DNA of 64,000 nt. Origin: Blasia pusilla (taxonomy: Eukaryota). Location of the stretch: the NCBI GenBank assembly GCA_050084515.1, contig CM114271.1:4712001-4776000 (forward strand), given 5' to 3'. Within the stretch, counting starts at the first letter, position 1. Each line of letters begins with the position of its first letter. The notes below the pieces were generated by a model, which worked only from the letters and a program-made list of their open reading frames with translations, searched no databases and had not been told where the DNA came from. Below, piece after piece: positions 18,961 through 61,909 of this stretch. The position numbers and the translations under genes are program-made.

Positions 18961-19878
18961 GTTACGTCCGGACCGAGGGCCAGAGAGGGCACCAGAGCGA
19001 GTAGCCGGTCTGGGTGGGTCTAGAGATCGTGCACCATGTAGTCTCGTTGGGGGATGAGGAGCTAGAGTTTCCCGATAGGGTGGTGGAGCTGCCCATGGAG
19101 GAGGTAGTGTACCACCATCTAGATGCGCCGAGGGAGACTCCGGACGTGAGGCTGGGATGGCTGCTCAATACAAAAGCTACATGAGCAGATTTCCGCTATG
19201 GCATTGAGGTTACCCGATGCCGGATCCGTGACATCGACATCATATGGAGCAGCCAGAGATCTGGAGGATCCTGGTTGGATGTGCGGGGTTGCCCAGATGG
19301 AGGCAGCCAAAGTTGTGATGCGTGGAGCAGCTGCAAAGTTGGATCCACAGCGAGGGGAAGCCATGAAATAGACGAGGCTTCCTCAATCTTTCACGTTGTC
19401 CGAGGTGATGAGGATCCCATCGATGGGTCCTGAACAGAGTTCATGGAGAGTTGGTGATGTTGTTGGTATGCAGGCACGGAGGGCGATGAGAGAAGCGAGT
19501 ACAACAACTCCTATTGTTGATGCTCATGAGGGGCATGTGTTGAGCACGTTGTTGGGGGTGGCCACTGTTGTGTACCGCACTCTTTTATTTTCTACTTCCA
19601 ATGTTATGATGTTGGGGGATACGCCCGCCGAGGCTTTTCGGCTGGCCGCCTCACTATGTGATCACTGTGGCGGAGTTGGAGTTCCTGCATCACGTTCAGA
19701 GGTGATTGCAGAGGAGGTGACGGACCTGCCCTTGGAGCGGATGCTCGGGCCGTCCACGTGAGATTCATGGCAGGCTGTGGCTGCTAGGATGGCGGAGATG
19801 CCCGCTAGATCCGCGATAGAGCGTGCCATGGCTTCTCCTGGTGTTGTGTTGCTGGATAACTGAGGAGAGGTCTTTCAG

Positions 19879-20290
19879 TTGGTGAGTCTCAGAGGTAGAG
19901 CTTTTAGTCCGCAGCGTGCCCTGTTGGATTCTGGAGCGCAACCCCTGATGTTGGGGAAAGCGTCATTCAGAGGATTGGGCTTGACGAGAGCTGATGTGGA
20001 GTGTCGTCCATTCCAAATACAGACATCCTTGGATGGAGTGAGTACCACACAATATATCACCCGATAGGAGGTCATGGTGAGGATTCGCCCGGGACATCCT
20101 ACAGATGAGTCCGTGGTGCGAGCCAAGGCGATAGTGACTGATGCAGAGTCCTACGACGTCTTGGTTGGTGGAGCAGTGTTATACTCGATGGGGTTTTCCC
20201 TAGATTACTAGGAGGAGTCAGCGTCCTACAGACCAAGATGGCAGTAAGGTGATGGGCGCCTTAGCTCATTACCCGTTCGATTCACAGGTG
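19879..20290 (+). pseudogene. retropepsin aspartic protease domain
   Basis: RALLDSGAQPLMLG active-site motif and downstream YDVLVGGAVL. Confidence 0.85.
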
Positions 20291-20641
20291 CAGTGATCGA
20301 GCAACGGCCAAGAGAGAGATGGCGACCTTAGTAGCATTTAGCAGTTCCATCACTTACCCTAGTGATTTGATTGAGGGATATGTCCATGCAGAGGATACTC
20401 CCGTTCCCAACATTTCTATGGAGAGGAGTGTTATGGTAGCCGCATCATTCTGTGGAGGAGAGGTGCCGCTGTGGGGTCGACTGAGGAGCTTCGACGATTG
20501 GCAGATGAGCACGTGCAAACCGCGTGGAGCGAGGCGTTTGCACTGGAGCGTGATAGGTCAGAGGAACCCGAGGTAGCAGGGAGTGCTACGATGACACCCT
20601 TGGATACCACACCCATTGTGTGGTGTACCCTGGAGGAGGGT

Positions 20642-21580
20642 ATTCGAGTGTTAGATCTCTTTGGAGGGATTAGCACCGGGTTAGTTGTTGTTTTGCAGGC
20701 ACGAGTGCGAGTACTGCAGTACCTGTATGTGGAGAGTGATGATGTTGCGAGGCGCGTCTCACTACGACATGTGGCGCAGTTATGCCTACGTTTTCATGAC
20801 TTATTGTCTGCGTCCGCAGTACAGGGGTACCAGAGTTCCCTACCGAGGGATATTTTGTTGCTGGGGCGCAGGACTTAGAGAGGGTAGGGACCATTGATTT
20901 GGTCATTTCCGGTTGGCCATGTCAGGGCCAATCGAGTGCTGGACAAGGCAACGGGTTGGCTGACACTCGGTCCAGGTTGTTTTGGGAGATGTTGAGGGTC
21001 TTACGGCAGTTGCAGGAGCACCAGTCTTGTTCTCCAACCTACATTCTGGAGAACGTGCCGATCTTAGGAGACTCCAGGTCATGGGTGGTCACAAGTGCTC
21101 ATCAGGTGCGTGCTTCGATCGGCCCAGCAGTGTTCTTGGATGCGGCGAGTGTAGGTTCTAGAGCCCATCGCCCGCGTCTATGGTGGATCAACTTGGTGCC
21201 CCATGCGGTCTTACGGAGGGCATATGCGAGAGTGGAGCGCCCCTCCCATTTGTTAGTGGATTCCATTCTGGATCCAAGTCGTCGCTTACAAGCAGTGAGG
21301 CACGATGATCGACCATCGTTGACTGTGGTCAACAGGATGGGCAGGCCGCAGGCAGCCTTTCCCACGTTTGTGAGTTTTCCCGCTTCCTATACATACAAGG
21401 AGGCCGGTCCTGGCTTGGTTTGGGATGACTAGGTTCAGCGGTTGGTGGAGACCAATGTCAACAAGAGAGAGAGAGCGATGGGATTTCCCACAGGAGTGAT
21501 GGCAATACCGTTAGTGTCATAGGCATCACAACGCCACGTCTTGGGTCAGGCGATAGACCTGAACTGCTTGACATGGATCC
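20642..21580 (+). pseudogene. DNMT3-like C5 cytosine DNA methyltransferase domain within pol (copy 1)
   Basis: Motif I VLDLFGGISTG, II YVESD, IV IDLVISGWPCQG, VI ILENV, VIII RAHRPRLWWINL, IX/X RERAMGFP...VLGQAIDLN. One frameshift near 20865 and stops in the C-terminal part. Confidence 0.92.
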
Positions 21581-22160
21581 TAGCTTGGGAGTGGCTGAGC
21601 AGCGTTGTATGAGATTGCAACAGATCACAACGGTTGCGTTGGTGAGCCCTATGCCTACTGAGACGGTGGAGGCAGTGGCTGGGGGCGAGACCCGAGGAGA
21701 TCTACACACCATGGGAGATCGGGAGAGACACCCTTGGACTTCTTGGGATGTTTTGCAGGTACGCCAGGAGATGATAGCCACAACATCCAACGTGGTTTAG
21801 AGCACTGCATGTGGAGGAGATCAGAGTTTGCAGTTGGCTGCAGGAGAGCAGTCGAGTATTGTTGTTCGAGACGGGTTTGCACCATAGCAACCAACGATAC
21901 CCGCGCTGGAGAGTCCTACCGTACTCACAATGGAGACTTGGGTGCCAGATATGGGCCCTAAGTTGACAGGAGGAGAGCGGCGACGAATACATCAGTTCCT
22001 CAGGAGTTATAGGAGCTGGTTTGCATTTAACATGGAGGATTTGGGTACGCTGAAGGGATCGGGGATCCACATTGAGTTATCGAGTGATACGCCGATCTTC
22101 CGACGACCCTACAGGTATAGTGATATGGAGAGGGCTCTGATTTAGAGTAGGAGCCAAGAC

Positions 22161-23009
22161 TTGGTTGGAGCAGGACTAGTGGAGATGTTGCATGGAGAGT
22201 ATGCATTTGCCACTATCATGCCCACCAAGAAGGATGTGCATGGCAACAAGACGGATAGGCGGATGTGTGGGGATTACCGACCTATCAATCGGGAGACGAA
22301 GTCCGATAGGTATGCCATGCCCACCCCTGAGGAGATCTTTGATACGAATGGTCACGCAAAGGTCTTCAGTTCATTGGATTTGCGAGCCGGATACCATCAA
22401 CAGCCTATCAGATTGGAGGACAGGCAGAAGACGGCATTTTGGGGCATCGATCCTCACGGGAAGGATTGTTTGTACGAGTGGCGGTTCTTACCATTTGGGT
22501 TAAAGAACGCCATGGTTGAGTTTCAGAGCATCATAGATAGGATCTCGGCTGGTCTGGATTTTGCTAGGTATTATATTGATGACATCGTAGTCTTTAGCGC
22601 CACCGTTGAGGAGCATGAGCGACATGTAGAGGAGGTGTTTCGACGATTGCAAATACATGGACTGAAGCTACATCCAGGCGAGTGCAAGTTCTTCTACGAT
22701 CGGATTGAGTACTTGGGTCATACGATATACCCAAGGGGCCTTGGTGTTCAGCAGACGAAGGTAGAGGCTATCTCACGTATTCCACGCCCTACAGATGTGA
22801 GCCGTGTTCGCGCATTCGTAGGATTGGCAAACTTCTATCGGCGGTACGTCAAGGGATTCTATTCGATTGCGAAGCCGTTGACCTTGCTGACCAAGGTGGA
22901 TCATGAGTGGCAATGGGGGGATGAGCAAGAGCGAGCATTTCAATTGCTCAAGGACAGGTTGACGTCTGCACCCATCTTGAGGAGATCGATCAGGGGGCGT
23001 CCTTTCTAG
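22161..23009 (+). pseudogene. Gypsy reverse transcriptase (copy 1)
   Basis: RMCGDYRPIN, LDLRAGYHQ, LPFGLKNA, YIDDIVVFS, YLGH. Confidence 0.97.
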
Positions 23010-23381
23010 TTGCACACAAATTGGAGCATGTTGGGGCTTGGAGCGGTGCTCACCCAACATGATGATGAGGGTAGAGAGTTTGTAGTGGCTTACGCTAGCC
23101 GCTCGAACAACGCTGCAGAGGCGAAGTACAGATCGCATGAGGGTGAGTGCTTGGCTGCAGTGTGGGCTGTCGCGCATTTTAGGTGTTACTTATTCGGCAA
23201 CCCCTTTACCATCATCACTGATCATCAACCACTGAAGTGGTTGATGGAGTCCGAAAAGCTTACAGGGAAGCTTGCGAGATGGGCTCTGTTGTTGCAAGAG
23301 TATGATTTTCAGGTGGTACATAGACCTAGGACGCTCAACGAGGATGCAGATGGGTTGAGTCGTAACCCATGCCCGAGTTAG
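23010..23381 (+). pseudogene. RNase H (copy 1)
   Basis: GLGAVLTQ, VAYASRS, ECLAAVWAV, TDHQPLKWL, DADGLSR. Confidence 0.95.
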
Positions 23382-23689
23382 CGAGATGCGACTGGAGCTC
23401 GATGGCGTGGAGAGAGTGAAGAGAGTCAGTGCCAGGATGGCACGCGTCAGCCTATTTAGGCATGTTGGCTAAGGAGAGCCAAAGTGTGCAGACTTCGATG
23501 GTGAGGTCTAGTGGCGAGTCCTTGGATCCCGAGGCTAGTGAGGAGACGACAAGTGGCCGAGATATTCATGATGATGGAGTAGTCTTGGAGTACCTTCGTA
23601 CTGGCAGCATTGCGAGCACCGTGGGTGCTAGAGAGCGGAATCGGATCCTATAGCGGGCCAGACGGTTCCGTTGGGAGGGGACACATATT

Positions 23690-24800
23690 TTGAGGGTTTG
23701 GGAGGATGGCAGAGTACGCGTAGTGCCACATCCTTCGCAGAGAGCACGACTAGTGCAGCATGCCCACGAGGAGTTGGGTCACTTTGGGGTGAAGCGGACG
23801 TACAACTTGCTCCAGATTCAGTATTGGTGGCGAGGCATGCAGACTGACGTTCAGCAGTTTGTTGCCAGGTGCATGGTGTGTGATTGGGTCTGAGCATCGT
23901 TCAATGCTCCGACTCCACAGTTGCATCCATTACCGATCATGGGCTTAGGGTATAGAGGGAGTTTGGATTTTGCAGGACCTTTGCCTTTGACGGAGCGTCA
24001 CAGTCGTTATGTATTGGTGATGGTCCAGCACTTCTCGAAGTGGATTGAGTTGGTTGCATTGCCTGACAAAGTGAGTGAGGGAATAGCTTATGCCTTCCTT
24101 GACAGAGTGTTGAGTCATTATGGCGCACCGGATGAGGTGTTGACAGACCAGGGTACCGAGTTTCGCGGTGAGTTTCAGGCCTTGTGTGATCAAGCACTGA
24201 TCGACCATCGTACTACTTCGCGAGATCATCCTAAGGCAGATGGACTAGCGGAGCGGGTTGTGCAGACGGTGAAGAGAGGAATACGCAAGTATGGCTTGCA
24301 GAGAGGTCACCTAGGAGATTGGGACCTTCAATTTCCGTGGTTGGCGATGGGATACAGATTCAGCATGCAGGCATCCTTAGCGTCTTTTTCACCATACTTG
24401 CTATTTTATGGCCGAGAGCCAGATTTACCTGTGGCCATTCGTCGAGATGTTGGTGAGGTGTTGGACCTTGATGACCCAGATGTATGGATGCGAGCATGTT
24501 CTCATAGGGTTGATTTGTTTTGGAGAGTGATGCCCATGGCGTTCGAGAACTTGGCGATTGCGCAGCATCAGGATACATTGAGGTATATGACTATTCGGGG
24601 TGGTGGTTATTGACCAACTATCCGGAGGTTTCATCATGGAGATTATGTCTACTTGCAGCAGACGGCACCAAAAATGTTGGATGTCACTGAAGGGCGCACT
24701 ATCTTGAGAGTGTGTGACGTTTTGCCATCCGGTGTTCTCTTGCTGGAGGGACGCGATGGTATGGTCTGGAAGGACCATGTGCGTAATTTTGCGCCATGTC
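23690..24800 (+). pseudogene. DDE integrase (copy 1)
   Basis: HHCC motif HEELGH...CMVC; core LDFAGP, TDQGTEF, GLAERVVQT. Confidence 0.95.
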
Positions 24801-24856
24801 ACCTTCCTAACATTGGTGGTACAGTAGATCCGAGCTTAGTAGTAGTTCCTTCACGC

Positions 24857-25003
24857 TTGCGTTGTATGTTGTATGGTTCCGCCCGTGGTGCGGCCACGAT
24901 GCTAGTCTGTGATGGATTTTTGAGAGCTTGGCATATGGCATGTCTGACGCCACCTCTCACTAGGGTTCCTCGGGGACGATGGATGTGTCCCATATGTACA
25001 TAG
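24857..25003 (+). pseudogene. C-terminal PHD finger fused to integrase (copy 1)
   Basis: CMLYG...MLVCDGF...WHMACLTPPL..VPRGRWMCPIC fits C4HC3 spacing with two Cys lost. Copy 2 keeps the second Cys (CMLC). Confidence 0.88.
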
Positions 25004-25176
25004 AGGAGATACTAGGTAGGTTTTGATTCTGACTTTTTTTGTGATATGGATGACATGAAGGCGACTAACGATGGGGCCGCATGAGCACCCGACCTTTCTG
25101 CTCTTAGCGTCCTAGAGATGTATGTCGTGGTAGATAGGGATAGAGGGCTATCTGGAGTTAGAGGTACCTAACCACC

Positions 25177-25190
25177 AGCTAGGGGGGCGA
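25177..25190 (+). promoter_or_regulatory. polypurine-tract-like plus-strand priming site
   Basis: agctaggggggcga lies immediately before repeat B1 and is conserved before B at about 50351 and 51202. Confidence 0.7.
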
Positions 25191-25191
25191 T

Positions 25192-25307
25192 TGGAAATAT
25201 TTTGGTACTTCTCGCCTCTGTGTATGGATGCCATGAGTAAGCATGGGATCGTGTGTGCGTTCGATGACAGCGATGTATGTTGTGTAGCAATATGTATGTG
25301 TACGACA
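25192..25307 (+). repeat. Repeat segment B1
   Basis: tggaaatattttggtacttctcgcc...tacgaca; direct repeat of 25827-25956; followed by a 2-bp spacer ac and then A2. Confidence 0.92.
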
Positions 25308-25309
25308 AC

Positions 25310-25826
25310 TGTCATGACTGTTAGGATAGATCGGTGGGATCTAGCAGAGCGTCTTCACGAGTAGTGGAGGACATACCCAAGAGATCGAAGATGACCTGCT
25401 GAGGCCCCGAGAAATCTGAGAGAGCAGAGGTTTCCCCTTCATTTCGGCTCATTTGGAGCCATATAGAGAAACTTACTATTTCACGTAAGTTTCCGTATTA
25501 GGGATAGTTGACTTTCCACATTGGGAAGTGGCCCTTGACTCGCTACAGCAAGTCAAGAGCCAAGGAGATGACCTGCTAACATAGGTTACCGTTGAGAGGG
25601 CTTGGGAGAGGGAAGGGGGTATACCTCCAAGAGAGGGAGCTTGAGAGCTCATTCTCCCTTTGTTGAACCTCTTGGCATAAGGCGGCGGAGCTATGGTCCC
25701 TTGCCTTGTGAGTATAACCCAAGCCTCTCATTAGGAGAGTGGGTTTGGTTTGACATGATAGAGAGTGCACACCTTTGAGAGCTATGGTGTGAGATGGTGT
25801 AGACAGAGATTGCATCTTATTTTAAA
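25310..25826 (+). repeat. Repeat segment A2
   Basis: Direct repeat of 15598-16112. Confidence 0.92.
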
Positions 25827-25956
25827 TGGAGATATTTTGGTACTTCTCGCCTTTGTGTATGGATGCCATGAGTTAGCATGGGATTGCGTGTGTTTGTTTG
25901 TGTGTGTGTTCGATGACAGCGATGTATGTTGTGTAGCGATATGTATGCGCACGACA
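25827..25956 (+). repeat. Repeat segment B2 (right terminus of copy 1)
   Basis: Second copy of B ending gcacgaca, followed by TSD aggt. Confidence 0.92.
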
Positions 25957-47200: not shown

Positions 47201-47329
47201 GTGGGAAATTTACTATACGACACCGCCCTAAAAGCCTATTAGCCTGGGTACACTACAAAGTTATGGGGACCCATTGTCTATAATAAAAAATTGCAATAAC
47301 TAAGGATAATCCATTTTTTGACCAGAGAT

Positions 47330-47461
47330 GATAAGTGTAGTATGTAAGGAACGAGTCAAACTTCTCACCCATAGCCCCATACATCTCTATGGCTGGTGGG
47401 ACAAATCGATATCCATCATGAAGTCAACTATAGAGATGGGTCTTCTTCATTGCCATCGCCG
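47330..47461 (-). mobile_element. 3' remnant of the second CRE-like LINE endonuclease
   Basis: Translates AMAMKKTHLY...RFVPPAIEMYGAMGEKFDSFL, homologous to AARIKELSY...FIPFAVEVFG; continues from 59073 across TSD gccg. Confidence 0.75.
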
Positions 47462-47587
47462 TGTCATGCCTATACACATTACTACACAACATACATCGTT
47501 GTCGAAAAACATACACACAAACACGCACGATCCCATGCTAACTCATGGCATCCAAACTACGAGACAAGAAGTACCAAAATATCTCCA
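47462..47587 (-). repeat. Repeat segment B (terminus of copy 2)
   Basis: Reverse complement of B, preceded on the minus strand by the last about 30 nt of A (47589-47618). Confidence 0.9.
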
Positions 47588-48267
47588 ATAAAAATACGAT
47601 CCAATCTCTCTCAACACCTAAGATTGAGGGTGAACATCCCCCAAAAATGGGATCTACTCACTCTACCTCAAAATAGCTGAATTCACTTGTCCTATCCACC
47701 AAGTAAACTGATTTTTTTTCTACCACTCAAGAAATTATTTCTACCCAATTTTTTTGAAATTTCACTCATACATTGAAATGGTGGCTATGGAAGCCCACAA
47801 AAAGTGTCGTAACTTCATGCTCAAATATTGGATCATGCACCGTTTCTTCTCCAGCATGCACAACTTCTCGATCTATGAGTTCATCAAATTGGTTTCTCCA
47901 TTTGATCTTCCACCAAAAATTGAACTATCGTGTAGCCTAACGTCCCTTTCTCCTACACAAAAATTGGCAACGCTTCCGCCCTGATTTATCCCAAAAAATA
48001 TATAAAACCTATCATAAAACAAACCAACGAGCTACATGGTACTCCTTAGAGCACCAGTATGGAGCAGTCCGCCCCCATTGGGCAGCGCTTCCGAGTGCCA
48101 CTCTCATATATGAAAATCAACAATGCAAAACAACAAACTACATCGCTCCTGCCCCTATGAGCACTCCCATGAGCCATGAAGTGATGAACATGGTCCCCCA
48201 ACCTGAAAAACAAGCAAGCAACCTGAGAGCTCTCCCATGAAGCTCTCCCACTCACTCATTCTCTCTT

Positions 48268-48774
48268 TGTAAATTGCGATCCAATCTCTCTCAACACCAT
48301 AGCTCTCAAATGTGTGCTCTCTCACATGTCTCTCTCAATGTCAAACCAAACCCACTCTCCTAATGAGAGGCTTGGGTTACACTTACAAGGCAAGCAAGAC
48401 CATAGCTCCGCCGCCTCATGCCAAGAGGTTCAACAAAGAGAGAATTAGCTCTCAAACTCTCTCTCCTTGAGGTATACCCCCTTCCCTCTCCCAAGCTCGG
48501 TCCTCGGTAACCTATGCTCGCACGTCACCTCCTTGGCTCTTGACCTGTTTAAGCGGGTCAAGGGCCACTTCCCAAAGTGGAAATTCAATATGGAAACTTA
48601 CCCAAAATAGTAAGGTTCTCTATATGGCTCCAAATGAGCCGAAACGAAGGGAAAACCTGCTCTCTCAGGTTTCCCAGGACCTCAGCAGTCATCCTCGATC
48701 TCCTGAGCCTGACCTTCTCTACTCGCAAAGGCGTTACATGTGATCACTCCGATCTGTCCTAAAAAATCGTGACA
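48268..48774 (-). repeat. Repeat segment A, followed by partial leader (47640-48267)
   Basis: Reverse complement of A starting tgtcacgattttttagg; leader homologous to 58230-58926. Confidence 0.9.
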
Positions 48775-48849
48775 ATCTGCGGACTGGCAACGTCGCTAGT
48801 GGGTGCTAGAGAGCGGGATCGGATCACAGCGAGCCAGATGGTTCCGGTG

Positions 48850-50180
48850 GAAGGGGACACATGTCTTGCAAGTTTGGGAGGTTGGAAGAGTGCGTGTAGT
48901 GCCTCATCCTTCGCAGAGAGCACGTTTGGAGCAGCATGCCCACGAGGAGTTGGGTCATTTTGGAATGAAGCAGACGTACAACTTGCTCCAGATATAGTAT
49001 TGATGGCGAGGCATGCAGACTGAAGTTCAACACTTTGTTAATTGCCAGGTCCATGGTGTGTGATTGAGTCTAGACATCGTTCAATGCTCCGACTCCACAG
49101 TTGCATCAACTTTCGATCATGGGTTTAGGTTATAGATGGAGTTTGGATTTTGCAGGACCTTTGCCTTTGACGGAGCGCCATAGTCGTTATGTGTTGATGA
49201 TGGTCGAGCACTTCTCGAAGTGGATAGAGTTGGTTGCATTTTCTGACAAAGCGAGTGAAGGAGTAGCGTATGCCTTCCTAGATCGAGTGCCGAGTCATTA
49301 CGATGCACCAGCTGAGATGTTGACAAACCAGGGTACAGAGTTTCTTGGGGAGTTTCAGGCCTTGTGTGATCAGGCGATGATCGACCACCGCACCACTTTG
49401 CGAGATCATCCTGAGGCGGATGGACTAGCGGATCGGGTTGTGTAGACGATGAAGATAAGATTACGCAAGTATGGCTTGTAGAGAGGTCACCTAGGAGATT
49501 GGGACCTCTAGTTGCCGTGGTTGGCGATGGGATACAGATTTATCAAACATGCATCCTTAGCGTCTTTCTCCCCCTACTTGCTTTTGTATGGCCAAGAGCC
49601 AAATTAACTTGTGGCCATTCGTCAAGATGTTGGTGAGGTGTTGAACCTTGATGACCTTGATGTATGGATGCGAGCATGTTCTCAGAGGGATGAGTTGTTT
49701 TGGAGAGTGATGCCCATGACGTTTGAGAACTTGGCGATGGCGCAACATTGGGATATATTGAGGTATGCGACAATTCGGAGAGGTGATTATCGACCTACTA
49801 TCCAGAGGTTTCATCAGGGAGACTATGTCTACTTGCAGCCGACGGCACCTACGACGTTGGATGTGACTGCAGAGCGTACAATCTTGAGAGTGCGTGAGAT
49901 TTTGCCATCTGGTGTTCTCTTATTGGAGGGACGCAATGGTATGGTTTGGAAGGACCATGTGCGTAACTGAGCACCATGTCATCTTCCGAACATTGACAGT
50001 ATAGTTGATCCGAGCTTAGCAATAGTTCCTGCAAGCTTGCGGTGTATGTTGTGTGGTTTTGCCCGTGGTGCAGCCACTATGTTAGTATGTGATGGGTATT
50101 CGAGAGGGTGGCATATGGCATGTCTGACGCCACCTCTCACTAGGATTCTTGAAGGACGATGGATGTGTCCCAGATAGACA
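48850..50180 (+). pseudogene. Integrase plus PHD finger of copy 2 (inside the inverted segment)
   Basis: HEELGH, LDFAGP, TNQGTEF, then CMLC...VCDG..WHMAC...WMC; collinear with 23600-25003. Confidence 0.92.
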
Positions 50181-50364
50181 TAGGGTAGGTAGTTCTAGAT
50201 TCCGACTTGTGTCTGTGATATGGATGACAAGAAGGCGACTAACGATGGGGCCGCATGAGCACCCGGCCTTTTGGCTCTTAGCGTCCGAGAGATGTATGTC
50301 ATGGTAGGTAGGGATAGATGGCTATATAGAGTTAGAGGGACCTAACCACCAGCTAGGGGGCGAT

Positions 50365-51342
50365 TGGAGATATTTGGTACTTCTTGTCTTGTTGTTTGGA
50401 TGTCATGAGTTAGCATGGGATCGTGCGTGCTTGTGTGTATGTTTGTCGACAACGATGGATATTGTGTAGCGATGTGTATGCGCACAACAACTATGACCAC
50501 TTTTTAGGATAGATGGGAGAGATTAGATAGAGCGCCTTCGCGAGTAGAGGAGGATATGCTTAAGAGGTCAAGGATGGCCTCATGAGGTCTCGAGAAACCT
50601 GAGAGAGCATGTTTTCCGTTCGTTTCGGCTCATTTGGAACCATATATAAAAATTTACTATTTTTGGTAAGTTTCCATATTTGGTAGAGTTTACTTTCCAC
50701 TTTGGGAAGTGGCCCTTGACCCGCTTAAACAAGTCAAGAGCCAAGGAGGTGACCTGCGAGCATAGGTTACCGAGGACAGAGCTTGGGAGAGGGAAGGGGG
50801 TATACCTCAAGGAGAGAGAGTTTGAGAGCTAATTCTCTCTTTGTTGAACCTCTTGGCATGAGGCGACGGAGCTATGGTCTTGCTTGCCTTGTAAGTGTAA
50901 CCCAAGCTTCTCATTAGGAGAGTGGGTTTGGTTTGACATTGAGAGACACATGTGAGAGAGCACACATTTGAGAGCTATGATGTTGAGAGAGATTGGATCG
51001 CAATTTGACGATGGATGTGTCCGAGATGTACATAGAGTAGGTAGTTCTAGATTCCGACTTGTGTGTGTGATATGGATGACAAGAAGGCGACTAACAATGG
51101 GGCCACATGAGCATCCTGCCTTTTCTCAGTTAGCGTCGAGAGATGTATGTCATGGTAGGTAGGGATAGATGGCTATTTGGAGTTAGAGGAACCTAACCAC
51201 CAGCTAGGGGGGCGATTGGAGAGATTTTGGTACTTCTTGTCTCGTTGTTTGGATGCCATGAGTTAGCATGGGATCGTGCGTGTTTGTGTGTATGTTTGTT
51301 GATAGTGATGTATGTTGTGTAGCGATGTGTATGCGCATGACA
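50365..51342 (+). repeat. B(50365-50489)-ac-A(50492-51006)-duplicated 3' region(51007-51216)-B(51217-51342)
   Basis: Direct comparison with the copy 1 repeats; 51007-51216 duplicates 50155-50364. Confidence 0.9.
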
Positions 51343-51569
51343 AGGTACTCCAAGACCACTCCATCGTCCTGAATGTCTCGGCCACCTGTTGTCTCCTCAT
51401 CGGCCTCTGGATCTAAGGACTCTCCATTAGACCTCGCCATCGAAGTCTCAGCAATCTAGCTCTTCATAGCCAACAAGCCCAAATAGGCTGACGCGGGCCA
51501 TCCTGGCACCAACTCCTCATCACTCTCACCATGCCAACGAGCTCTAGCCGCATCTCGTTGACTCAGGCA

Positions 51570-52813
51570 TGGGTTACGGCTCAAACCATGTGCATCCTGG
51601 TTTAGCGTCCAGGTCTATGCACCACTTGGAAGTCATACTCCTGCAACAAAAGAGCCCACCTCGCAAGCTTCCCTATAAGCTTGTCAGACTCCATCAACCA
51701 CTTAAGTGGTTGATGATCAGTAATGATGGTAAGGTTTTCCAATTAATAACACTTGAAATATGCGATAGCCCACACTGTAGCCAATCACTCACCCTCATAC
51801 GAGCTATACTTCGCCTCTGCAGCGTTGTTCGAGCGACTAGAGTAAGCCACCACAAACTCTCTACCATCATGCATCGTCATGTTGGGTGAGCACGATTCCA
51901 AGCCCCAACATGCTCCAATCGGTATGCAACTGGAAAGGACTCCCGTGATCGATCTCCTCAATATGGGCGCAAACGTCAATATATCCTTGAGCACTTGAAA
52001 TGCTCTCTCCTTCTCATCCTCCCAATGCCACTCCTGATCCACCTTGGTCAACAAGGTTAGCGGCTTTGCAATTGAACTGAAATCCTTGACGTACCGTCCA
52101 TAGAAGTTCGCCAATCCCATGAATGGACGAACTCAACTCATATCTGTAGGGCTTGGAATGCGTGAAATAGCCTCTTCCTTCGTCTGCTTCACACCAAGGC
52201 CCCCTAGGTATATCGTATGACCCAAGTACTCAATCTGGTCGTGGAAGAACTTGCATTTGCCTGGATGTAGCTTCATCCCATGTAACTGCAATCGTTGGAA
52301 CACCTCCTCTAGATGTCGCTCATGCTCCTCAACCGTGGCGCTAAATACTACCATGTCATCAATATAACACCTAGCAAAATCCAGACCTGCCAAGATCCTA
52401 TCCATGACCCTCTGAAACTCACCTGGGGCGTGCTTTAACCAAAATGGTAAGAACCGCCACTGGTACAAACAATCCTTCCCATGAGGATCGATGCCCCAAA
52501 ATATCGTCTTCTACTTGTCTTCCAATCTGATGGGCAGCTGATGGTATCCGTCTCGCAAATCTAGTGAACTAAAGACCTTTGCATGCCCAATCGCATCAAA
52601 GATCTCCTCAGGGGTGGGCATGGCATACCTATCGGACTTTGTCTGCCAATTGATAGGTCGGTAATCTCCACACATCTGCCTATCCGTCCAGTTGCCATGC
52701 ACATCCTTCTTGGCGGGCATGACAGTGACAAATGCATACTCTCCATGCGACATCTCCACTAGTCCTGCTCCAACCAAGTCATGGCTCCTACTTTGAATCA
52801 GAGCCCTCTCCAT
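51570..52813 (-). pseudogene. RT and RNase H of copy 2
   Basis: MCGDYRPIN, LDLRDGYHQ, CYIDDMVVFS, YLGH, VVAYSSRSN. Confidence 0.95.
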
Positions 52814-53359
52814 ATCATTGTACGTGTAGGGTCATCGAAAAATAGGCGTGTCACTCGACAACTCAATGCGGATCCCTGTACCCTTCAACATACCCAAATC
52901 TTGCATGCTAAATGCAAAACAACTCCTATAACTCCTCAAGAACTGATGTATCCGACGCCGCTCTCCTCTTGTCAACTTAGGGCCCAAACCTGGCTCCCAA
53001 GTCTCCATAGTGACTACGGTAGGACTCTCCGGCATGGGTGTAGGTGGTTGCTATGGTGCAACCCCGTCTCGCACAGTAGCACTCGGCTGCTCCCCTACAT
53101 CCATCTGCAAAATCGGATCTCCTCCACGTGCAATACTTGAAACTACGCTCGATGTTGTGGCTACCATCTCCTGGTGTACCAGCAAAACATCCCAAGAAGT
53201 CCAAGGGCGTCTCTCCCGATCACCCCTGGTGTGTCGATCTCCATGGATCTCGCTCATAGCCACTGCCTCAACCGTCTCGGTAGGCATGGGGCTCACCAAC
53301 GCAACAGCTGTGATGTGTCGCATCCTAAAACGACACTGCTCAGCTACGCCTGAGCTAAA

Positions 53360-54301
53360 AATCCATGTCAAGCAATTTAGGTCCATCGCTTGACCTAAGA
53401 CATGACCTCGTGATGCCTCTGATAGTGACGGTACTGCCATCATTCCTGTGGGGAATCCCATTGCTCGCTCGCGCTCATCGGCATTGGGCTCCATGACCTC
53501 TGCACCTAGTCATCTCAAACCAAGCCACGTCCGGCCTCCTTGAATGCATAGGAAGCAGGAAAACTCACCAATGGGGGAAAGGCTGCTCGCTACATGCCAA
53601 TCCTGTTGACCATAGTCAACGGCGGTCGATCATCGTATCACGCTGCCTGTGATCGACGACCTGGATCGAGAATAGAATCCACCAACAAATCGGAAGGCCG
53701 CTCCACTCTCGCATACGCCCTCCGCAAAATCTCATGTGGGACCAAGTTGGTCCACCATAGATGCGGGTGGTGTGCTCTAGAACCTACACTCGCTGCATCC
53801 AAAAATACTGTTGAGCCGATCCATGCATACACTTGATGTGCACCCATCACCACCCGTGACCTCGAATGAATCGCCCAAGATCGGCACATTCTCCAGAATG
53901 TATGCTGGAGAACGAGACTCATGCTCCTACAAGTGTCGCAAAATCCGCTTCATATCCCAAAATAACTTGGATTGAGTGTTAGCTAACCCGCTAACTCGTC
54001 CAACACTCGATTGGCCATGACACGGCCAACCAGCAATGACCAAGTCTATGGTCCCTACCCGCTCCAAGTCCTGCGCCCCCAACAATGAAATATCCCTCGG
54101 TAGGGAACTCTGGTATCCCTGGATAGTGAGCGTAGACAACAAGTCGGAAAAACGGAGGCATAATTGCCCCACATGATAAAGTGAAGCGCGCCTCGCAACA
54201 TCATCAATCTCCACATACAGGTACTGCTGCATGCGTATTCTTGCCTGCAAAACAACAGCTAACCCATTGCTGATTCCTCCAAAGAGATCCAACACCCGAA
54301 T
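53360..54301 (-). pseudogene. DNMT3-like cytosine methyltransferase domain (copy 2)
   Basis: VLDLFGGISNG, YVEID, IDLVIAGWPCHG, LENVP (alternate frame), RAHHPHLWWTNL, ERERAMGFPTG...RGHVLGQAMD. Confidence 0.92.
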
Positions 54302-54699
54302 ACCCTCCTCTGGGATGCGCCACACAATGGGTGTGGTATCCATGGGAGTCACTATAGCACTCTTGGCTACCTCGGGTTCCTATGACCCGTCACGCTCTGG
54401 TGCAAACGTCTCGCTCCACGCGGTCTGCACATGCTCAATAGCTAAGTGTTGAAGCTCCTCAGTTGAGCCCCAAAGTGGCACCTTTCCTCCACAGACTAAT
54501 GCAGCTACCATGACACTCCTCTTCATAGACATGTCAAGAACGGAAGTGTCCTTTGCATGGACATGTCCCTCAATCAAATCACTAGGCCAAGTGATGGCGT
54601 TGCTAAATGATTCTAAGGTCGCCATCTCTCCTGGCCGTCGCTCGATCACTGAATGTGTGAATCGAACGGGTAATGAGCTAAGGAGCCTATCACCTGACT

Positions 54700-56970
54700 G
54701 CCTTCCTAGTATGTAGGATGGTGACTCCTCCCAATAATCCAGGGAAAACCCCATCGGGTACAACACTGCTCCACCAACCAAGACGTTGTAGGACTCTGCA
54801 TCGGTCACTATCGCCTTGGCTCACACCACGGACTCATCTGTAGGGTGTCCCAGGCGAATCCTCACCACGACCTCCTATCGGGTGATATATTGTGTGGTCC
54901 TCGCTCCACCCAAGGATGTTTGTATCCGGAATGGACAATGCTCCACATCGGCCCTCGTCAGGCCCAAACCTCTGAATGCCACTAAAGCTCTACCTCATGG
55001 ACTCACCAGCTAGAAGACCTCTCCCCGGTTATCCAGCAAAATAACACTAGGAGAAGCCATGACACGCTCTATCGTTGGTCTAGCGTGCATCTCCGCCATC
55101 CTAGCAACCGCAACCTGCCATGAATCTGACGTGGATGGCCCAAGCATTTGCTCCAAGGGCAGGTCCATCACCTCCTCTGCAATCACCTCTGAATGTGAGA
55201 CGCGAATTCCAACTCCACGCTCACATAATATAGCGGCCAACCGGAAAACCTCGACGGGCGTACCTCCCAAAGTCATAACATTGAAAGCAGAAAATAAAGA
55301 AGCGAGGTACACAACAGTGGCCGTCCCCAATAACATGCTCGACACATGCTCCTCCTGAGCACCAACAGTAGGAGTCGTCGCACTCGCTTCTCCCATTGCC
55401 CTCCATGCCCGCACACCAACAACATCACCTACTCTCCGGGAACTCTGATTAGGACCCATCGATGGGGTCCTTATCGCCTCGAACAACGTGAAGGACTGAG
55501 GAAGCTTGGTCTGTTTACTGGCTTTCCCTCGTTGTGGATCCAACTCTACGGCTGCTCCACGCTTAACAACTGCAACGGCCTCCATAAGACGTCGATGCCA
55601 CGGATCTGGCATCGGGTAACCTCAATGCCATAGCGGCAATCTGCTGTTGTATCTGAGCATCCATCCCAGACTCATGCCTGTCGTCTCCCTCGACGCGTCT
55701 AGGTGGTGGGACTCTACCTCCTCCACGGGCAGCTCCACCACCATGTGGGGCAACTCCAGTTCCTCGTCCCCCAACGGGACCACCTGGTGCACGACCTCTA
55801 GGCTCATCCGGACCGGCTACTCGCTCTGGTGCCCTCTCTGGCCCTCGGTTTGGACGTAATCAGGGTGTAAACTGAAACACCTAGCGCATGTGTGACCATA
55901 CCTCTGACAATAGTCACACTGATAACCTCCTGGTGCAACACCATCTCCTCCCCTACGTCCATGACCCTGACAAGTGCAATCATGCTGATGATGGCCACCA
56001 CATGACCAACAAGTAATCGTAAGCGGTTGTTATTGAGCCGCATATGAAGGCGCAAGTCTTTGTGGCACGACCTGCCGGTATCTTCCCTGATCTCGTGGTG
56101 CCACAATCGACCTATCTCAGAGTCCACGTTGCAGCACTGGTGGTGCAGGCAATCGTGACTGCTCTCGCCCAGAACCCATGGTGGCGACGCTCTCCTTCGC
56201 CATGTTGCGATCTATGTTCTCGGCGATCCTAAAAAACATCTCTCAATGTAGGGGAGGTGTTCATAAGAAGCACCCCTCCTACACCCGTGTGTGCAGGGTA
56301 CGGTCCAGTATCGCATACCATGACTGGATAGCCTGAGCCTCTATCAACTCCTGAGTGACGTTGATCAACCGGTGCAAGCGAGTGTAAGTCTCACGTAAAC
56401 TCTCACCTGGGCGCCTATGGAAGTCGTGGATGTTCCACAACTTCTCCATCCGTACCCCTTGGTATCTCGCCCTCAACTCAACCAAGAACTCAACCACGAG
56501 GTTGAAACTAGGACGAACCCGACTAGACGGTGCAACTTCTCCAGTGCGAGTGACCCCTCCTAAAGCATCACTAGTGGTAGAGGAAGTAGCCTCTTCTGAC
56601 TCCTCCTCCTCCTCTAGGAATAGCTTTGTCCATGACACATAATGTGGGTCATAGTAGAGTCGCCATGCCTCAATCTCCCGGGTATATCTGTGGGAGAACT
56701 CATGGTAATCGTCCATGGGCGCTCCCTCTAAATGCTAGAACATATCGTTCCATGGTGTAAATTGGTTGAACTCTCTAGAGTTCCTCCAACTCCTAAAATC
56801 CGCAATGAAGTCGTGTATCTCTATAGTGCCTACAGTACCCGAAACCTACGTGGTCCTCTATCCCGGTCGTCCATCTTGTACGCCCAACTAGTAGGACCAC
56901 TCAATGTGTACGGTGGATCACTAACACACTCCTCTACACGCTCCCCCTCGTTTGAAGATGACACATAAGG
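54700..56970 (-). pseudogene. gag and protease of copy 2 (protease DSG motif deleted)
   Basis: Collinear with 17823-20290; the LLDSGA segment is missing near 54978. Confidence 0.85.
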
Positions 56971-58926
56971 AGATCGAGGTGGTCTCTCACATGGAGACCC
57001 TCGAAACCTCGCACCACTCCGGGTAAACCCTCCAGAGCTACTCTCAGATCCACTACCTCGCCTCTCAAAATCTCGAAAGGATGCCGTGATGACCCTCGTG
57101 CCCCCTTCATACGATCACTCTCAACCTCACAAGTAATCACTCAAGCACTCAACTAAACAGGCGGCACTCAATCCACACTCTCTCACTAAGAAGTGTGTTG
57201 TGCGGCAACAAGCGGCATGGTGCGGCAAATTATTTACAGTCATATCATCTCATCGATAAGACACACCCTCAACTCTAGACATCCCACACAGGTCTATGTC
57301 CCCTAAACCACATACATGAACGATGCTCTCAGAGTCTACACAAAACTCAATATCTCAAATAACTATCCAATACCCGAAAATCCCTAACACGTGGAGGACA
57401 AAAGATCAAAATGGACCATGCTCCTTTCGCGACCTGTCTATTACCTATTGATTTGTGGGGTTCGAGTTTTCTATATGCTATGCCTTGATTTGTGACCATT
57501 CGACGAGGATCAAATATCGTATCATGACACTAGTAATCGTGGCGGGTCGCGACGGGAGCGTGGCAGGTCGCGACAGTGCAAGTAGGTCTACGGCAGCTGC
57601 GAGCAGGCCCGACACGAGTGTGGAAGATCGCATTAGGGCAGCGCCTCAGTTAGAGCGGCTGCTCCGTTGACAAACCTTCCGCAGGAGCCGGCGGCTGAGT
57701 AGCCGACAGACGCTGCCGGGACGGATGGAAATGTATGGTGGGCGGGCGGTCACAGGCCCTCACGGAGCCGCGAATAGGCTGATGACACAGCAGGCCCTGT
57801 ACGTGCGTCGGCGCAAGCTCGCCCGTGACTGTCAGCTGAAGGCCTGAAGGTAGTGGCAGTGACGGGGGTGGAAGAGGCACGCGTCCGCATGGAGCAGCAG
57901 GCGGGCCGGGTCGGAAGACTCTCCGCCGTGGAATAGCCGTGTCTACCACATTTGAGCGGCGCCTAGGAGAATGGCCGCGGTTAGTCGCGGTTACTGGGCG
58001 CCCAGGAGGTGTTGGCACCTTGTTCGACTGCGGCACATCAGAGGACGGTAGTGGCGACAAGTCTAGCACACGCGCGGCTCTAGCGGCAGTTTCAGCATGG
58101 TCGGAAGTGGACTACATGCGGCAGGAGGGCTAACTACTGAGAGACAACGTCAGCGGAACAGCCGGCTGGATGCGGTCAGGGCTGGCGGACGTGGTTCCCC
58201 TCACAGACTTCCTATTTTTACTCAAATACCCCCCTACAAATTCGGATCTCAACTCAAATTTTCCCACTAACTCCACAATTGGTGGGTCAAATCTTCTAAA
58301 TTTATTTTTCACTCAGCTTCTACCTCAAAGGACATGTGCCCTTGTCCTATCCCTTAAGATGAAAACGAATTTTAATTTTTCTACCCATCAACAAGGATTT
58401 TTATCCAAAGATTTTAGAAACTTCACTCACAACTTGGAACAATGGCTATGGCAGCCCAACTGTCGTAACTTCACGCTCAGATAAGAAATTGCGCACCGTT
58501 TCTTCCACATCGTGCACAACTTCTCGATGATAGGACCTCATTGAATTGGTTCCTCCATTCGATCTTCCACAAAAAAACTGAGCGGGACTGTCGTGCAACC
58601 TCACGTCTCTTTCTCCTACGCAAAATTTGGATTGCTCCCAAAAAAAGTGTAAAACCTTATCATAAAACAAACCAGAAAGCTACATGGTGATCCCGAGAGC
58701 ACCAACATGGAGCAATCCTCCCCCATACTCAATTTCTATCCAAAATTGGGCAACGCTTCCGCGTGCCACTCTCATGTACGAAAATCAACAAAGAAAAAAT
58801 AGCAAACTTGCGCGGCTCTTGCTCGGGTGAGCACTCCCATAAGTCATGAAGCGGGGAACATGGTCCCCCAACCTGCAAAACCAGTGAGCTCCCCCATGAA
58901 GCTCTCTCACTCACTCATTCTCTCTT

Positions 58927-59072
58927 TGTAAAAATGCGATCCAATCCCTCTCAACACCATAACTCTCAAATGTGTGCACTATCACATGTCTCTCTCAATG
59001 TCAAACCAAACCCACTCTACTCGCGAAGGCGCTCTACCAGATTTCTCTGATCTATCCTAAAAAGTCGTGATA
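58927..59072 (-). repeat. Internally deleted A repeat (5' terminus of copy 2)
   Basis: The first about 55 nt of A are joined to its last about 90 nt. Confidence 0.85.
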
Positions 59073-61150
59073 GCCGCCGCTCCTTATAGCAATGTCCCTC
59101 GTGCCACCACCTAGGCTGGTATAGCCTCCCACATAGGATCTGTCACTACAACCTCCGCCGTCACCACCTCAACCTCTCGCTTCATATAAAGATTAACATG
59201 AATAAGGGAATCTCGCATGGAGTAGTACCTCTCTCTTTGCACATGGAAGCCACTCTTGCGAGCAACACTTAACATCTTATCTCGTACAATCGACTGAGTG
59301 GTGTCGTGTGCAAACATATCGCTACACAACATACATCTTTAGTCACATCTACACCACACAACACTGATCTTCCCCACACACGGGTAGATCCACACATGTA
59401 CACAAATCAACTCATATATATACATGGAGATCACACAACAAAAATAAAGAGTAGTAAAAACGACACATCCGGCCTAAAACTCCACTCCTCAATCTACATC
59501 GGCATATTGAGCCTCGTCCACCCTGTGTTGTCAAGAGATCCGGACGCTAGCACCCTAATCCTATCTCACACACATACAAGAGAGATGCTCCAACGGCCCA
59601 ACATGAGAAAGATGGATTAGGAAAGCCATCTTCCTCTCTTATATAGGGTTAGGAAGAGCCAAAAGGCTCTTCCCCTAAAAATAGCTATCCCCTTGGTAAC
59701 CTGCACGCACAGGTTACCAGGGGCGGATGATCTGGTCAACAAGTCACCCGGTTGTGAAATATCTTAACAGAAAATTTGTCAGAAACAACGTTCCTGACAC
59801 AATGGACCTATCCTCTACCGCATCTGACACTGTGGGACAAAGTTACACTCAAGATAGTCCGTTGGCTCCTACGCCCCATCCACGATAGGTCTCGGCCTAT
59901 CGGCTACTCAGATGTGACATTGGAAATCCTCTCACCCCCAATTGAACAACGTGCCAAATGCACACCAAGTGGATCCAAACTCCAACAATACTTATTGTGT
60001 GTCAAACCAACCACCGATGGTTGGGGGAGGCATAGTCAAAATCGCATTGGTGTGGTGTAAGTAAGTGGTGTGATACGGAAAGCCAAGATGAGGGGGCGAG
60101 CCACCATCCATGAGCTTGCCCCCTTTCTTAAGCAAGAGAGAATACAAACCTGAAACTCCATGGGGATATCCCTAATTGACACAATGTCACTAAAAATTAC
60201 CTCAAAGTGGGCTTCCATCAATGAAGATTGAAGCTTAGACTCATCGGAGGTAACTAAGGAGGAGAAAGTTGGGAGAACCACTTTGGCCCCGACTAGAAGG
60301 GAATCTCTACATGCTTTGAGGGAAGACGGTAGTGGGGAAAGGCCATCATCAACCTGGGATACGTAATGTAGAAGGAGTCATCTATCCCTCACCATAAATA
60401 GAGAGCAAAGAAGGGATGTTGTAGTGGCCCAACTCCCTAAAAAAGCCGAGAGCGCCACTAACTCGGTTGAGAGAAGACCTACTCCGCCAAAGGCAACGGG
60501 CTAACTTCCCCATGGGGCAGTCTAAGGAGTTGGGTCCTAAAAGATCCCCAAACACATGTAGAATCTTCCTCTTAGAGGATCTATAGAGTGTAGAAAGGTA
60601 ACTAGACATCCAACCAATTCTAGTGAGATAACCAGATCGACAAGGAAAACAAGAAGAGAGAATGCCACAGGCCACTTGAGGGTCACCAATCCTCGTAAGA
60701 TCATCGACGTGGAGCAAATCTTTGATAAGAGACAAAGTCATGGCCCCCGAGTGGGACTCCCAAGATGTGCAACCCTCCGACAAGTGTCATGAATCCATAA
60801 GGTAAACGAAGATCATCGAGGAGGCGTGATGGAGACCAATCCTTGCACTTTCCGACCTTCACCGCAACACCCCAACTGCACAAAAAAGTGTTGAAATGCA
60901 AGGACCAATTGATCTCCATAATCCACCACATCAGCATTATCTACAGATGATGGGAAAATGCAACCCAAAAAAACAACCACTCTACAAAGCCTCTCGCATC
61001 ATATAAAAAGAGAATCCCGCATGGAGTAGTATTTCTATGCACAAGGAAGCCACTCTTGTGAGCGGTACTAAACATGATATCCCGCACACCACCGTGAATG
61101 GAAATCCTCTCACCCCTATCATTCAACCCTATGGGAAAATGCAACACAAA
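59073..61150 (-). mobile_element. Second CRE-like non-LTR element (RT C-terminus plus endonuclease), decayed and interrupted
   Basis: VKVGKCKDWSPS, ILGVPLG, IGDPQVACGILS, DPLGVHLARC..GERIS, VVVTDP; homologous to 12808-14400. An extra endonuclease piece lies at about 61020-61130. Confidence 0.8.
59302..59919 (-). mobile_element. Solo A+B-type repeat (618 bp) of a related family
   Basis: Minus strand starts tgtcac and ends gatgtatgttgtgtagcgatatgtttgcacacgaca (B terminus). Flanks gtgg/ttgg (4-bp TSD, 1 mismatch). Removal restores ERISTQSIVRD in the host LINE. Confidence 0.8.

Positions 61151-61853: not shown

Positions 61854-61855
<2 letters not shown>

Positions 61856-61905: not shown

Positions 61906-61909
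<4 letters not shown>

What the first reader, a model, noticed from the sequence alone, without database searches (positions are those of the whole stretch)
48774..51346. Fossil integrase-mediated inversion: an internal B|A junction attacked its own pol gene
Seen: minus-strand pol of copy 2 stops at ...gagtACCT (51343-51346) directly against a precise B end (51342). The remaining pol resumes on the plus strand at ATCTgcggactggc (48775-48778) directly against a precise A start (48774). In copy 1 this spot is one contiguous gagtACCTtcgtactggc (23592-23595). So 4 bp are duplicated (one C>T change), the family TSD length, and both breakpoints are exact att ends. Inference: flipping 48775-51342 back re-forms a B|A junction in a tandem array, so integrase used a joined junction intramolecularly. 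This supports the circle-junction model and implies that genomic copies carry latent rearrangement sites.
Basis: partly seen in the sequence, partly recalled or inferred. Interest (0 to 1): 0.85.

Follow-up and report, generated by a model that had tools for sequence, protein, structure and literature searches.

The report
Flipped segment inside an old retrotransposon
A decayed plant retrotransposon copy carries a 2.6-kb flipped piece whose two edges are exact element ends with a 4-base duplication, and it is best explained by one copy landing backwards inside another and the two then recombining, not by a new integrase reaction.

Summary
In the composite copy (47462-59072), pol runs on the minus strand up to ...GAGTACCT (51343-51346) against a B end (51342). 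It resumes on the plus strand at ATCT (48775-48778) against an A start (48774). Copy 1 is contiguous there (23592-23595), so 4 bp are duplicated with one C>T change.

The family is a Ty3/Gypsy element carrying a Dnmt3-type methylase and a PHD-finger integrase. Its repeats are A1-int-B1-AC-A2-B2, and both complete units have 4-bp target duplications.

The composite has its own outer duplication (GCCG), so its four element ends pair off by duplication into an outer and an inner element. That is what an ordinary backwards nested insertion followed by homologous recombination between the inverted copies would leave, plus a later ~9-kb deletion.

This route gives the same topology as the joined-junction route and as autointegration routes. 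Shared derived sites among the three A copies lean 4:1:0 towards pairing by duplication, but the numbers are small.

Reads could not verify the inner breakpoints because other copies of the family swamp the locus. Interest is modest.

The parts
47458..47461 (.). Outer target-site duplication GCCG, left copy
   Evidence: identical to 59073-59076.
47462..47589 (-). B repeat, short form, with a precise B end at 47462 (the 3' terminus of the composite)
   Evidence: It differs by 9.6-10.4% from the other two B copies of the composite.
47590..47618 (-). Last 29 bp of an A repeat, joined directly to B; what remains of a 3' A2
   Evidence: It shares the extra T and the T state with the A at 59072.
47619..48262 (-). 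About 640 bp of 5' internal region following the A at 48774. It ends at a deletion junction that removed roughly 9 kb.
   Evidence: homology to the 5' internal region of the full copy stops near position 650. No B-like sequence was found in the 5' internal regions.
48263..48774 (-). A repeat (A_X) with a precise A start at 48774; left breakpoint of the flipped segment
   Evidence: It differs by 8.8% from A2 at 50492-51006.
48775..48778 (+). ATCT: one copy of the 4-bp duplicated pol target (ACCT with one C>T change)
48775..50154 (+). 3' part of pol (linker before the integrase, integrase core, C-terminal region) on the plus strand
   Evidence: 85% identity to copy 1, 23621-25762. (rve at 49074-49445, E=1.5e-09).
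50155..50489 (+). B1, long definition. It is followed by the 2-bp spacer AC at 50490-50491.
   Evidence: It differs by 8.7% from B2 at 51007-51342.
50492..51006 (+). A2 repeat
51007..51342 (+). B2, long form (336 bp, against about 130 bp in copy 1 and at 47462), with a precise B end at 51342; right breakpoint
51343..51346 (-). ACCT (AGGT on the plus strand): second copy of the duplicated pol target
51343..58926 (-). 5' part of the element on the minus strand: RNase H, RT, Dnmt3-type methylase, gag region and 5' internal region
   Evidence: 83% identity to copy 1 over 6245 aligned columns. (RT_RNaseH_2, RVT_1, DNA_methylase).
58927..59072 (-). A1 of the composite, with an internal deletion of about 370 bp; A start at 59072
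59073..59076 (.). Outer target-site duplication GCCG, right copy
   Evidence: A 162-nt contig of run X4 spans 59009-59170 with one differing letter (table 8).
15598..25956 (+). Copy 1, the uninterrupted reference: A1 15598-16110, B1 25192-25307, spacer AC 25308-25309, A2 25310-25826, B2 25827-25956, TSD AGGT. The pol target ACCT is intact at 23592-23595.

Best explanation
Two ordinary integrations followed by ordinary recombination.

1. An outer element (R0) integrated on the minus strand with a GCCG duplication. Its ends are the A start at 59072 and the B end at 47462.
2. A second, nearly identical copy of the same subfamily (Y) integrated in the opposite orientation into ACCT, in the linker between RNase H and integrase of R0. 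This made the 4-bp duplication. Its ends are the A start at 48774 and the B end at 51342.
3. The two copies were then long inverted repeats. A homologous crossover between the 3' part of Y and the 3' part of R0 flipped the DNA between them. This leaves pol-5' on the minus strand against Y's B end, and pol-3' on the plus strand against Y's A start.
4. Later, an illegitimate deletion of about 9 kb, from about 650 bp into the 5' internal region to 29 bp before the end of A2, cut the second body down to 47462-48774.

Shown: the two junctions, the two duplication pairs, the strand split of pol, and the equal divergence of all the repeats. Inferred: the order of events, the crossover (invisible because it lies in homologous sequence), and the later deletion.
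For: (1) The four termini pair by duplication: GCCG outside and AGGT/AGAT inside. This is what two normal insertions leave.

(2) A contiguous unit flanked by non-matching duplications (47462-48774 sits between GCCG and ATCT) is the usual mark of recombination between elements. This is established knowledge, recalled and not taken from a call.

(3) Nested insertion is plausible a priori. In this 64-kb window the family fills copy 1 (10.4 kb), the composite (11.6 kb) and a 5' fragment at 42925-44280. Read depth in the 1-in-100 sample reaches about 45 per mate direction on the A repeat, against 0-1.5 on the least repeated bins.

(4) Recombination needs near-identity, and the repeats fit that. A_X vs A2 differ by 8.8%, B1 vs B2 by 8.7% and short B vs the others by 9.6-10.4%. 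The X and F 5' internal regions differ by 19.8%, which stands in the same ratio to the copy-1 distance (about 32%) as for A. So all parts were alike at one time.

(5) Shared derived sites among the three A copies number A_X=A2 4, A(59072)=A2 1 and A_X=A(59072) 0. In addition, A(59072) and the 29-bp A remnant at 47590-47618 share an extra T and the T state. That groups the repeats by duplication pair, as this model predicts.

(6) Misassembly through the repeats is unlikely because they now differ by about 9%.
Against: Three events are needed, and the crossover and the second full body are not visible. Only 1.3 kb of the second element remains.

The site count is small: 4 against 1 gives a one-sided binomial p of about 0.19. 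In the first 58 bp of A, the A at 59072 is closer to A2 (10 of 61 mismatches) than A_X is (16 of 65).

The equal age of all the repeats would follow automatically if everything came from one replication event. Under this model it requires Y to have arrived soon after R0 from a very similar source.

An autointegration inversion circle recombined into a resident copy gives the same product and the same partition, so this evidence cannot exclude it.
Confidence: 0.45

Rival explanations
1. A fossil of autointegration before or during integration. Integrase joined an A start and a B end of unintegrated cDNA to ACCT in the element's own pol on opposite strands (the 'inversion circle' topology), and the product then reached the chromosome. 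It could have arrived in two ways. The circle could have recombined homologously with a resident copy. Or two cDNAs could have been involved, with one A end and one B end attacking pol while the other two ends integrated at GCCG.
For: Reading the minus strand from 59072, the order is A, gag-pol5', ACCT, reverse-complemented 3' end, reverse-complemented pol3', the target again, then A and the 5' internal region again. That is an inversion circle read for more than one turn.

Inversion and deletion circles from autointegration are described for a plant element and for Ty1 in passages of PMC7197481 and in the abstract of PMC2644782 (listing).

The equal divergence of all repeats follows directly if everything came from one event. 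The circle-plus-resident version also predicts the 4:1:0 partition.
Against: Autointegration products are dead-end circles, so a second rare step is needed to fix one in the genome. The two-cDNA version needs two mixed intasomes and predicts that A(59072) pairs with A2, which leans against (1 vs 4). The 9-kb deletion is still needed. The polypurine-flap argument is empty here: copy 1 has 34 purine-rich tracts of at least 13 of 15.
Confidence: 0.27
2. A head-to-tail array sat in the chromosome with a joined B|A junction. Integrase cut that junction and inserted it into pol of the same array, flipping 48775-51342.
For: Flipping the segment back abuts the B end at 51342 and the A start at 48774 exactly. 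Every element carries an internal B1-AC-A2 junction of abutted ends with a conserved 2-bp spacer, seen in 2 of 2 full copies, so joined ends are part of the family's design. A relative, KnitGypsy-Dnmt3, is said to have the repeat structure of a DIRS element (Fig. 4c legend of PMC5890265), and circular intermediates have been proposed for DIRS elements (recalled).
Against: No array is observed; it is only inferred from a topological equivalence. The outer GCCG duplication would require a pre-joined dimer to have integrated as one unit. Use of a chromosomal joined junction by a retroelement integrase has no precedent that I know of (recalled; the search found only autointegration of free ends). 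This model predicts that A(59072) pairs with A2, against the lean. It also predicts rearrangements from the internal B1|A2 junction; none is among the 15 joints shown of 77.
Confidence: 0.08
3. An assembly artefact: a false join or false inversion through the A and B repeats.
For: The inner breakpoints could not be checked with reads. Laid reads come mostly from other copies of the family (3408 of 3634 in X14 are 95-99% alike) and single-copy depth is about 1.
Against: A false join would fall inside repeats. It would not fall exactly at element termini with a 4-bp duplication of a pol site. The repeats in the locus differ by about 9%, which is easy for an assembler. An independent 2019 run has a contig across the outer junction at 59072/59073 (table 8, record 16).
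Confidence: 0.05

Closest known systems
Recombination between LTR retrotransposon copies (nested insertion, then homologous exchange; units left with non-matching target duplications)
   Same: There are two duplication-matched pairs of termini. A contiguous unit is flanked by different duplications. The exchange lies in homologous sequence and is invisible. Later illegitimate deletion trimmed the locus.
   Different: The partners here are inverted, so the result is an inversion and not a deletion or solo repeat. The element also has split repeats, A...B-AC-A-B, in place of plain LTRs. The precedent is recalled knowledge; the search listed no paper describing exactly this case (listing only).
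Autointegration 'inversion circles' of retroviruses, Ty1 and Arabidopsis SISYPHUS (PMC7197481 passages; Garfinkel 2006 as cited there; the Moloney MLV circle with an inverted segment is recalled, not seen)
   Same: An inverted segment is bounded by one element end on each side, with a target-length duplication at an internal site of the element.
   Different: The known products are extrachromosomal dead ends from a single cDNA. This one is chromosomal, has an outer duplication, and has a second A with 5' internal sequence and a second B.
KnitGypsy-Dnmt3 of Klebsormidium nitens (PMC5890265)
   Same: The domains are Gypsy-type with a Dnmt3-type methylase in pol, and the repeat structure is DIRS-like (Fig. 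4c legend).
   Different: The host is different: the best protein matches are liverworts at 71-77% identity. The 4-bp duplications, the AC spacer and the PHD finger were seen here; I did not see them described in the passages read.
Joined-end junctions of bacterial insertion sequences (IS30, IS911, IS21 dimers or circles)
   Same: As an idea: abutted ends with a short spacer act as a reactive site and give intramolecular inversions or deletions with target duplications.
   Different: These are prokaryotic DNA transposons. There is no evidence here that the B-AC-A junction is ever cut. This comparison is recalled and not tested.

Membership tests
Ty3/Gypsy retrotransposon with Dnmt3 (KnitGypsy-Dnmt3-like) | Pol order RT, RNase H, DDE integrase | tested here: met
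   RVT_1 1.9e-24, RT_RNaseH 3.4e-35 and rve 1.3e-11, in that order along copy 1. One search gives the same domains for the composite.
Ty3/Gypsy retrotransposon with Dnmt3 (KnitGypsy-Dnmt3-like) | C5 cytosine methyltransferase of Dnmt3 type inside the element | tested here: met
   DNA_methylase 1.3e-11 at 20800-21432; of 24 PDB sequences matched, the best 23 are DNMT3A, 3B or 3C (best E=1.6e-05). Only a fragment of the domain is intact.
Ty3/Gypsy retrotransposon with Dnmt3 (KnitGypsy-Dnmt3-like) | DIRS-like (split direct) repeat layout A1...B1 A2 B2 | tested here: met
   present in copy 1 and in the composite. The A|B junction is also seen as joints in reads from other copies.
DIRS / Ngaro / PAT tyrosine-recombinase retrotransposons | Tyrosine recombinase instead of DDE integrase, and no target-site duplication | tested here: not met
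   rve is present and no recombinase family was hit among the 12 ORFs of at least 100 aa scanned on the plus strand of copy 1. 4-bp duplications are present in 2 of 2 complete units.
Nested insertion plus inverted-repeat recombination | Two pairs of termini, each pair sharing its own target duplication | tested here: met
   Outer GCCG/GCCG; inner AGGT/AGAT in element orientation.
Nested insertion plus inverted-repeat recombination | Repeats co-derived according to the duplication pairs (A at 48774 with A2; A at 59072 with the A remnant at 47590-47618) | tested here: inconclusive
   shared derived sites 4:1:0 in favour, plus a shared extra T. The overall mismatch counts are not different.
Nested insertion plus inverted-repeat recombination | Two element bodies present | tested here: inconclusive
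   Only one full body, plus 1.3 kb of a second (47462-48774). A later deletion of about 9 kb has to be assumed.
Autointegration inversion product | Inverted segment bounded by element ends, with a target-length duplication at an internal site | tested here: met
Autointegration inversion product | Attacking ends and target belong to the same cDNA molecule | not testable with these tools
   All repeats are equally diverged. The topology is the same as for the rival routes.
   No array is present in the window. No genome is held. The read joints shown do not address it.

The most novel reading that the evidence does not exclude
Integrase of a Gypsy-Dnmt3 element with split direct repeats cut a joined B|A junction lying in chromosomal DNA and inserted it into the element's own pol. 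Integrated copies, each with an internal B1-AC-A2 junction, would then be latent rearrangement sites, as joined ends are in some bacterial insertion sequences. A milder version is that the locus is a chromosomal fossil of autointegration of free cDNA ends. I put that version at about 0.27 in addition.
Probability: 0.08. Interest if true: 0.7.

Novelty: new member of a known kind. Interest (0 to 1): 0.3.

Why it matters
If the ordinary route is right, the locus is a clean worked example of how nested copies of one family scramble each other. It also warns that exact element ends plus a duplication at inversion breakpoints do not prove an intramolecular integrase reaction.

If an integrase self-attack were shown, it would be a rare chromosomal record of autointegration. 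If a joined junction were shown to be used, it would change how this unusual family is thought to move: Gypsy enzymes combined with DIRS-like repeats. The family itself is the more interesting object, with its split repeats, AC spacer, 4-bp duplications, Dnmt3 domain and PHD-finger integrase.

Tried and rejected
- Reads: four runs were laid on 47200-59300. The family is so abundant that reads from other copies dominate, so the two inner breakpoints could not be confirmed or refuted.
- Central polypurine flap near the target: rejected, because copy 1 has 34 purine-rich tracts.
- A B-like sequence in the 5' internal region, which would have made 47462-48774 a natural unit: a sensitive blastn found nothing significant beyond the expected 5' internal homology.
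- I first read the low X-F identity in the 5' internal region (76% by BLAST) as showing two different subfamilies. I dropped this after one search showed the region simply evolves about twice as fast in all comparisons.
- Metagenome relatives: the first scan found none. The second gave 80 loci, of which only L001-L003 are close (48-57%). I examined the two whose contigs extend past pol (L003 and L001), and neither showed B...B repeats.
- The 59300-64000 region: 6 ORFs were scanned and no pol domains were found.
- A short non-autonomous element inserted backwards followed by a crossover within the 128-bp B repeats: this is topologically possible without any deletion. It predicts the opposite A partition (leans against it), and such a unit lacks B1 and most of A2.
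Full report
**What is there.** The window holds two large copies of one retroelement family (self-BLAST).

Copy 1 (15598-25956, plus strand) is uninterrupted. Its broken reading frames hit Pfam DNA_methylase, RVT_1, RT_RNaseH, rve and PHD, in that order. The methylase fragment is closest to DNMT3A, 3B and 3C among solved structures. The RT frame is 71-77% identical to liverwort proteins, some of which also carry the methylase. So this is a bryophyte Ty3/Gypsy element with a Dnmt3 domain and a PHD-finger integrase.

The repeats are not plain LTRs. The layout is A1 (15598-16110), internal region, B1 (25192-25307), a 2-bp spacer AC, A2 (25310-25826) and B2 (25827-25956). The unit starts TGTCACGAC, ends CACGACA, and is flanked by AGGT on both sides. 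In K. nitens, a Gypsy-Dnmt3 element is reported to have "the same" repeat structure as a DIRS element with Gypsy domains (Fig. 4c legend of PMC5890265, passages seen). So the family type is in print, although I did not see its duplications or spacer described there.

**The observation.**
- On the minus strand, pol of the second copy matches copy 1 up to GGAGTACCT (51343-51346) and then meets a reverse-complemented B end at 51342.
- On the plus strand, a reverse-complemented A start ends at 48774, and pol resumes with ATCTGCGGACTGGCA. This aligns without gaps to ACCTTCGTACTGGCA of copy 1.
- Four bases are therefore present twice, with one C>T change.
- Pfam places the integrase core on the plus strand (49074-49445) and RNase H, RT and the methylase on the minus strand.
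- In other copies of the family, pol is contiguous here. 86 read pairs in X14 and 80 in X15 join about 48797-48800 to 51342/51343 on opposite strands (table 5). That is how an intact pol appears when laid on this flipped copy.

The whole composite, 47462-59072, is flanked by its own 4-bp duplication, GCCG (47458-47461 and 59073-59076). It contains two A starts (59072 and 48774) and two terminal B ends (47462 and 51342).

By duplication, these pair as an outer element (59072 with 47462) and an inner element (48774 with 51342; AGGT/AGAT in element orientation).

The stretch 47462-48774 consists of an A repeat, about 640 bp of 5' internal region, the last 29 bp of an A, and a short B. It is an element with about 9 kb deleted.

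**Routes to this layout.** Several routes give an identical product.
- (a) A second copy integrates backwards into ACCT of a resident copy. A homologous crossover between the 3' parts of the two inverted copies then flips the DNA between them.
- (b) Autointegration of a cDNA gives an inversion circle (known: passages of PMC7197481), which recombines into a resident copy.
- (c) Two cDNAs exchange ends, with one A end and one B end attacking pol while the other two ends integrate at GCCG.

Unless the short unit was already mobile, which is unlikely since it lacks B1 and most of A2, all four routes also need the 9-kb deletion. That flipping 48775-51342 back makes a tandem is a property of the topology and does not favour (d).

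**Can the sequence tell them apart?** Only through which repeats were copied together.

Divergences are flat:
- A(48774) vs A2: 8.8%.
- B1 vs B2: 8.7%.
- Short B vs the others: 9.6-10.4%.
- Copy 1's own A1 vs A2: 8.8%.
- Copy 1 vs the composite: 13-16%.

The 5' internal regions differ by 19.8% within the composite and by about 32% from copy 1. That is the same ratio as for A. All parts of the composite were therefore alike at one time, and there is no age signal.

Shared derived sites among the three A copies, polarised with copy 1 and the fragment at 43 kb, number:
- 4 for A(48774)=A2, three of them transversions;
- 1 for A(59072)=A2;
- 0 for A(48774)=A(59072).

In addition, A(59072) and the 29-bp remnant share an extra T. 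This groups the repeats by duplication pair, as routes (a) and (b) predict and (c) and (d) do not. However, A(59072) has lost about 370 bp, the comparison covers only about 150 columns, and 4 against 1 is not significant. In the first 58 bp the mismatch counts point the other way.

**Weighing.** Route (a) uses only commonplace events.
- The family fills about a third of this window and is very abundant in reads, so landing in another copy is likely.
- Kilobase-long near-identical inverted repeats recombine readily (recalled knowledge).
- Illegitimate deletions are the normal fate of plant retroelements (recalled).

Route (b) needs a suicide product to be rescued. Routes (c) and (d) need reactions without precedent for retroelements, to my knowledge; one search found 9 papers, none of which, by title and abstract start, reports a chromosomal autointegration product.

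My probabilities are (a) 0.45, (b)+(c) 0.27, (d) 0.08 and misassembly 0.05. The remainder goes to routes not considered.

Misassembly is unlikely for two reasons. The breakpoints are exact termini with a duplication, and the local repeats differ by about 9%. Still, only the outer right junction is covered by an independent contig (record 16).

**Limits.**
- No genome is held.
- Reads could not isolate this locus.
- Metagenome relatives were too short to show repeats.
- Supplements of the cited papers were not opened. Supplementary figures of PMC5890265 may describe the repeat ends of the algal element.

Noticed in passing
15598-25956 and 47462-59072: The family combines Gypsy enzymes (DDE integrase, 4-bp duplications) with DIRS-like split repeats, A1...B1-AC-A2-B2. 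The abutted B end and A start keep a 2-bp AC spacer in both full copies. How reverse transcription makes B2 after A2 is unexplained. No tRNA-type primer site follows A1, and a G-run (AGGGGGG, 25181-25187) lies just before the short form of B1, not before A2.
   Followed up: partly
25827-25956, 47462-47589, 51007-51342: B2 comes in two lengths. It is about 130 bp in copy 1 and at 47462, and 336 bp at 51007-51342. Read joints show several different A|B junction positions in other copies, so this junction varies within the family.
   Followed up: partly
15594-15597, 25957-25961, 51343-51347: Copy 1 and the inner insertion share the same target in element orientation, AGGT followed by A. The outer insertion has CGGC. 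Two of three could be chance or a target preference.
   Followed up: no
59302-59337 (minus strand): A 36-bp B end (94% identical to copy 1) sits 229 bp right of the composite. Its inner sequence is different and matches 25 of 30 letters of a loose-end consensus seen in over 100 reads per run at 51307. So another abundant subfamily shares only the terminal 36 bp, probably the integrase-binding end. No pol domains were found in 6 ORFs to its right.
   Followed up: partly
42925-44280: A further 5' fragment of the family on the plus strand (part of A, then 5' internal region up to the gag start), truncated on both sides.
   Followed up: no
58927-59072: A1 of the composite has lost about 370 bp internally. 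The deletion lies between two short similar motifs (GAGTAG.. / GAGAGTGG..).
   Followed up: no
16110-16153: A 44-nt purine-rich tract begins immediately after A1. The same motif follows the A copies at 48262 and 58927.
   Followed up: no
31401-31576 / 31691-31866 and 38572-39000 / 63548-63955: An unrelated inverted repeat pair of 176 bp (96.6% identity, arms about 115 bp apart), and a direct repeat of about 430 bp (84%). Neither belongs to this family.
   Followed up: no
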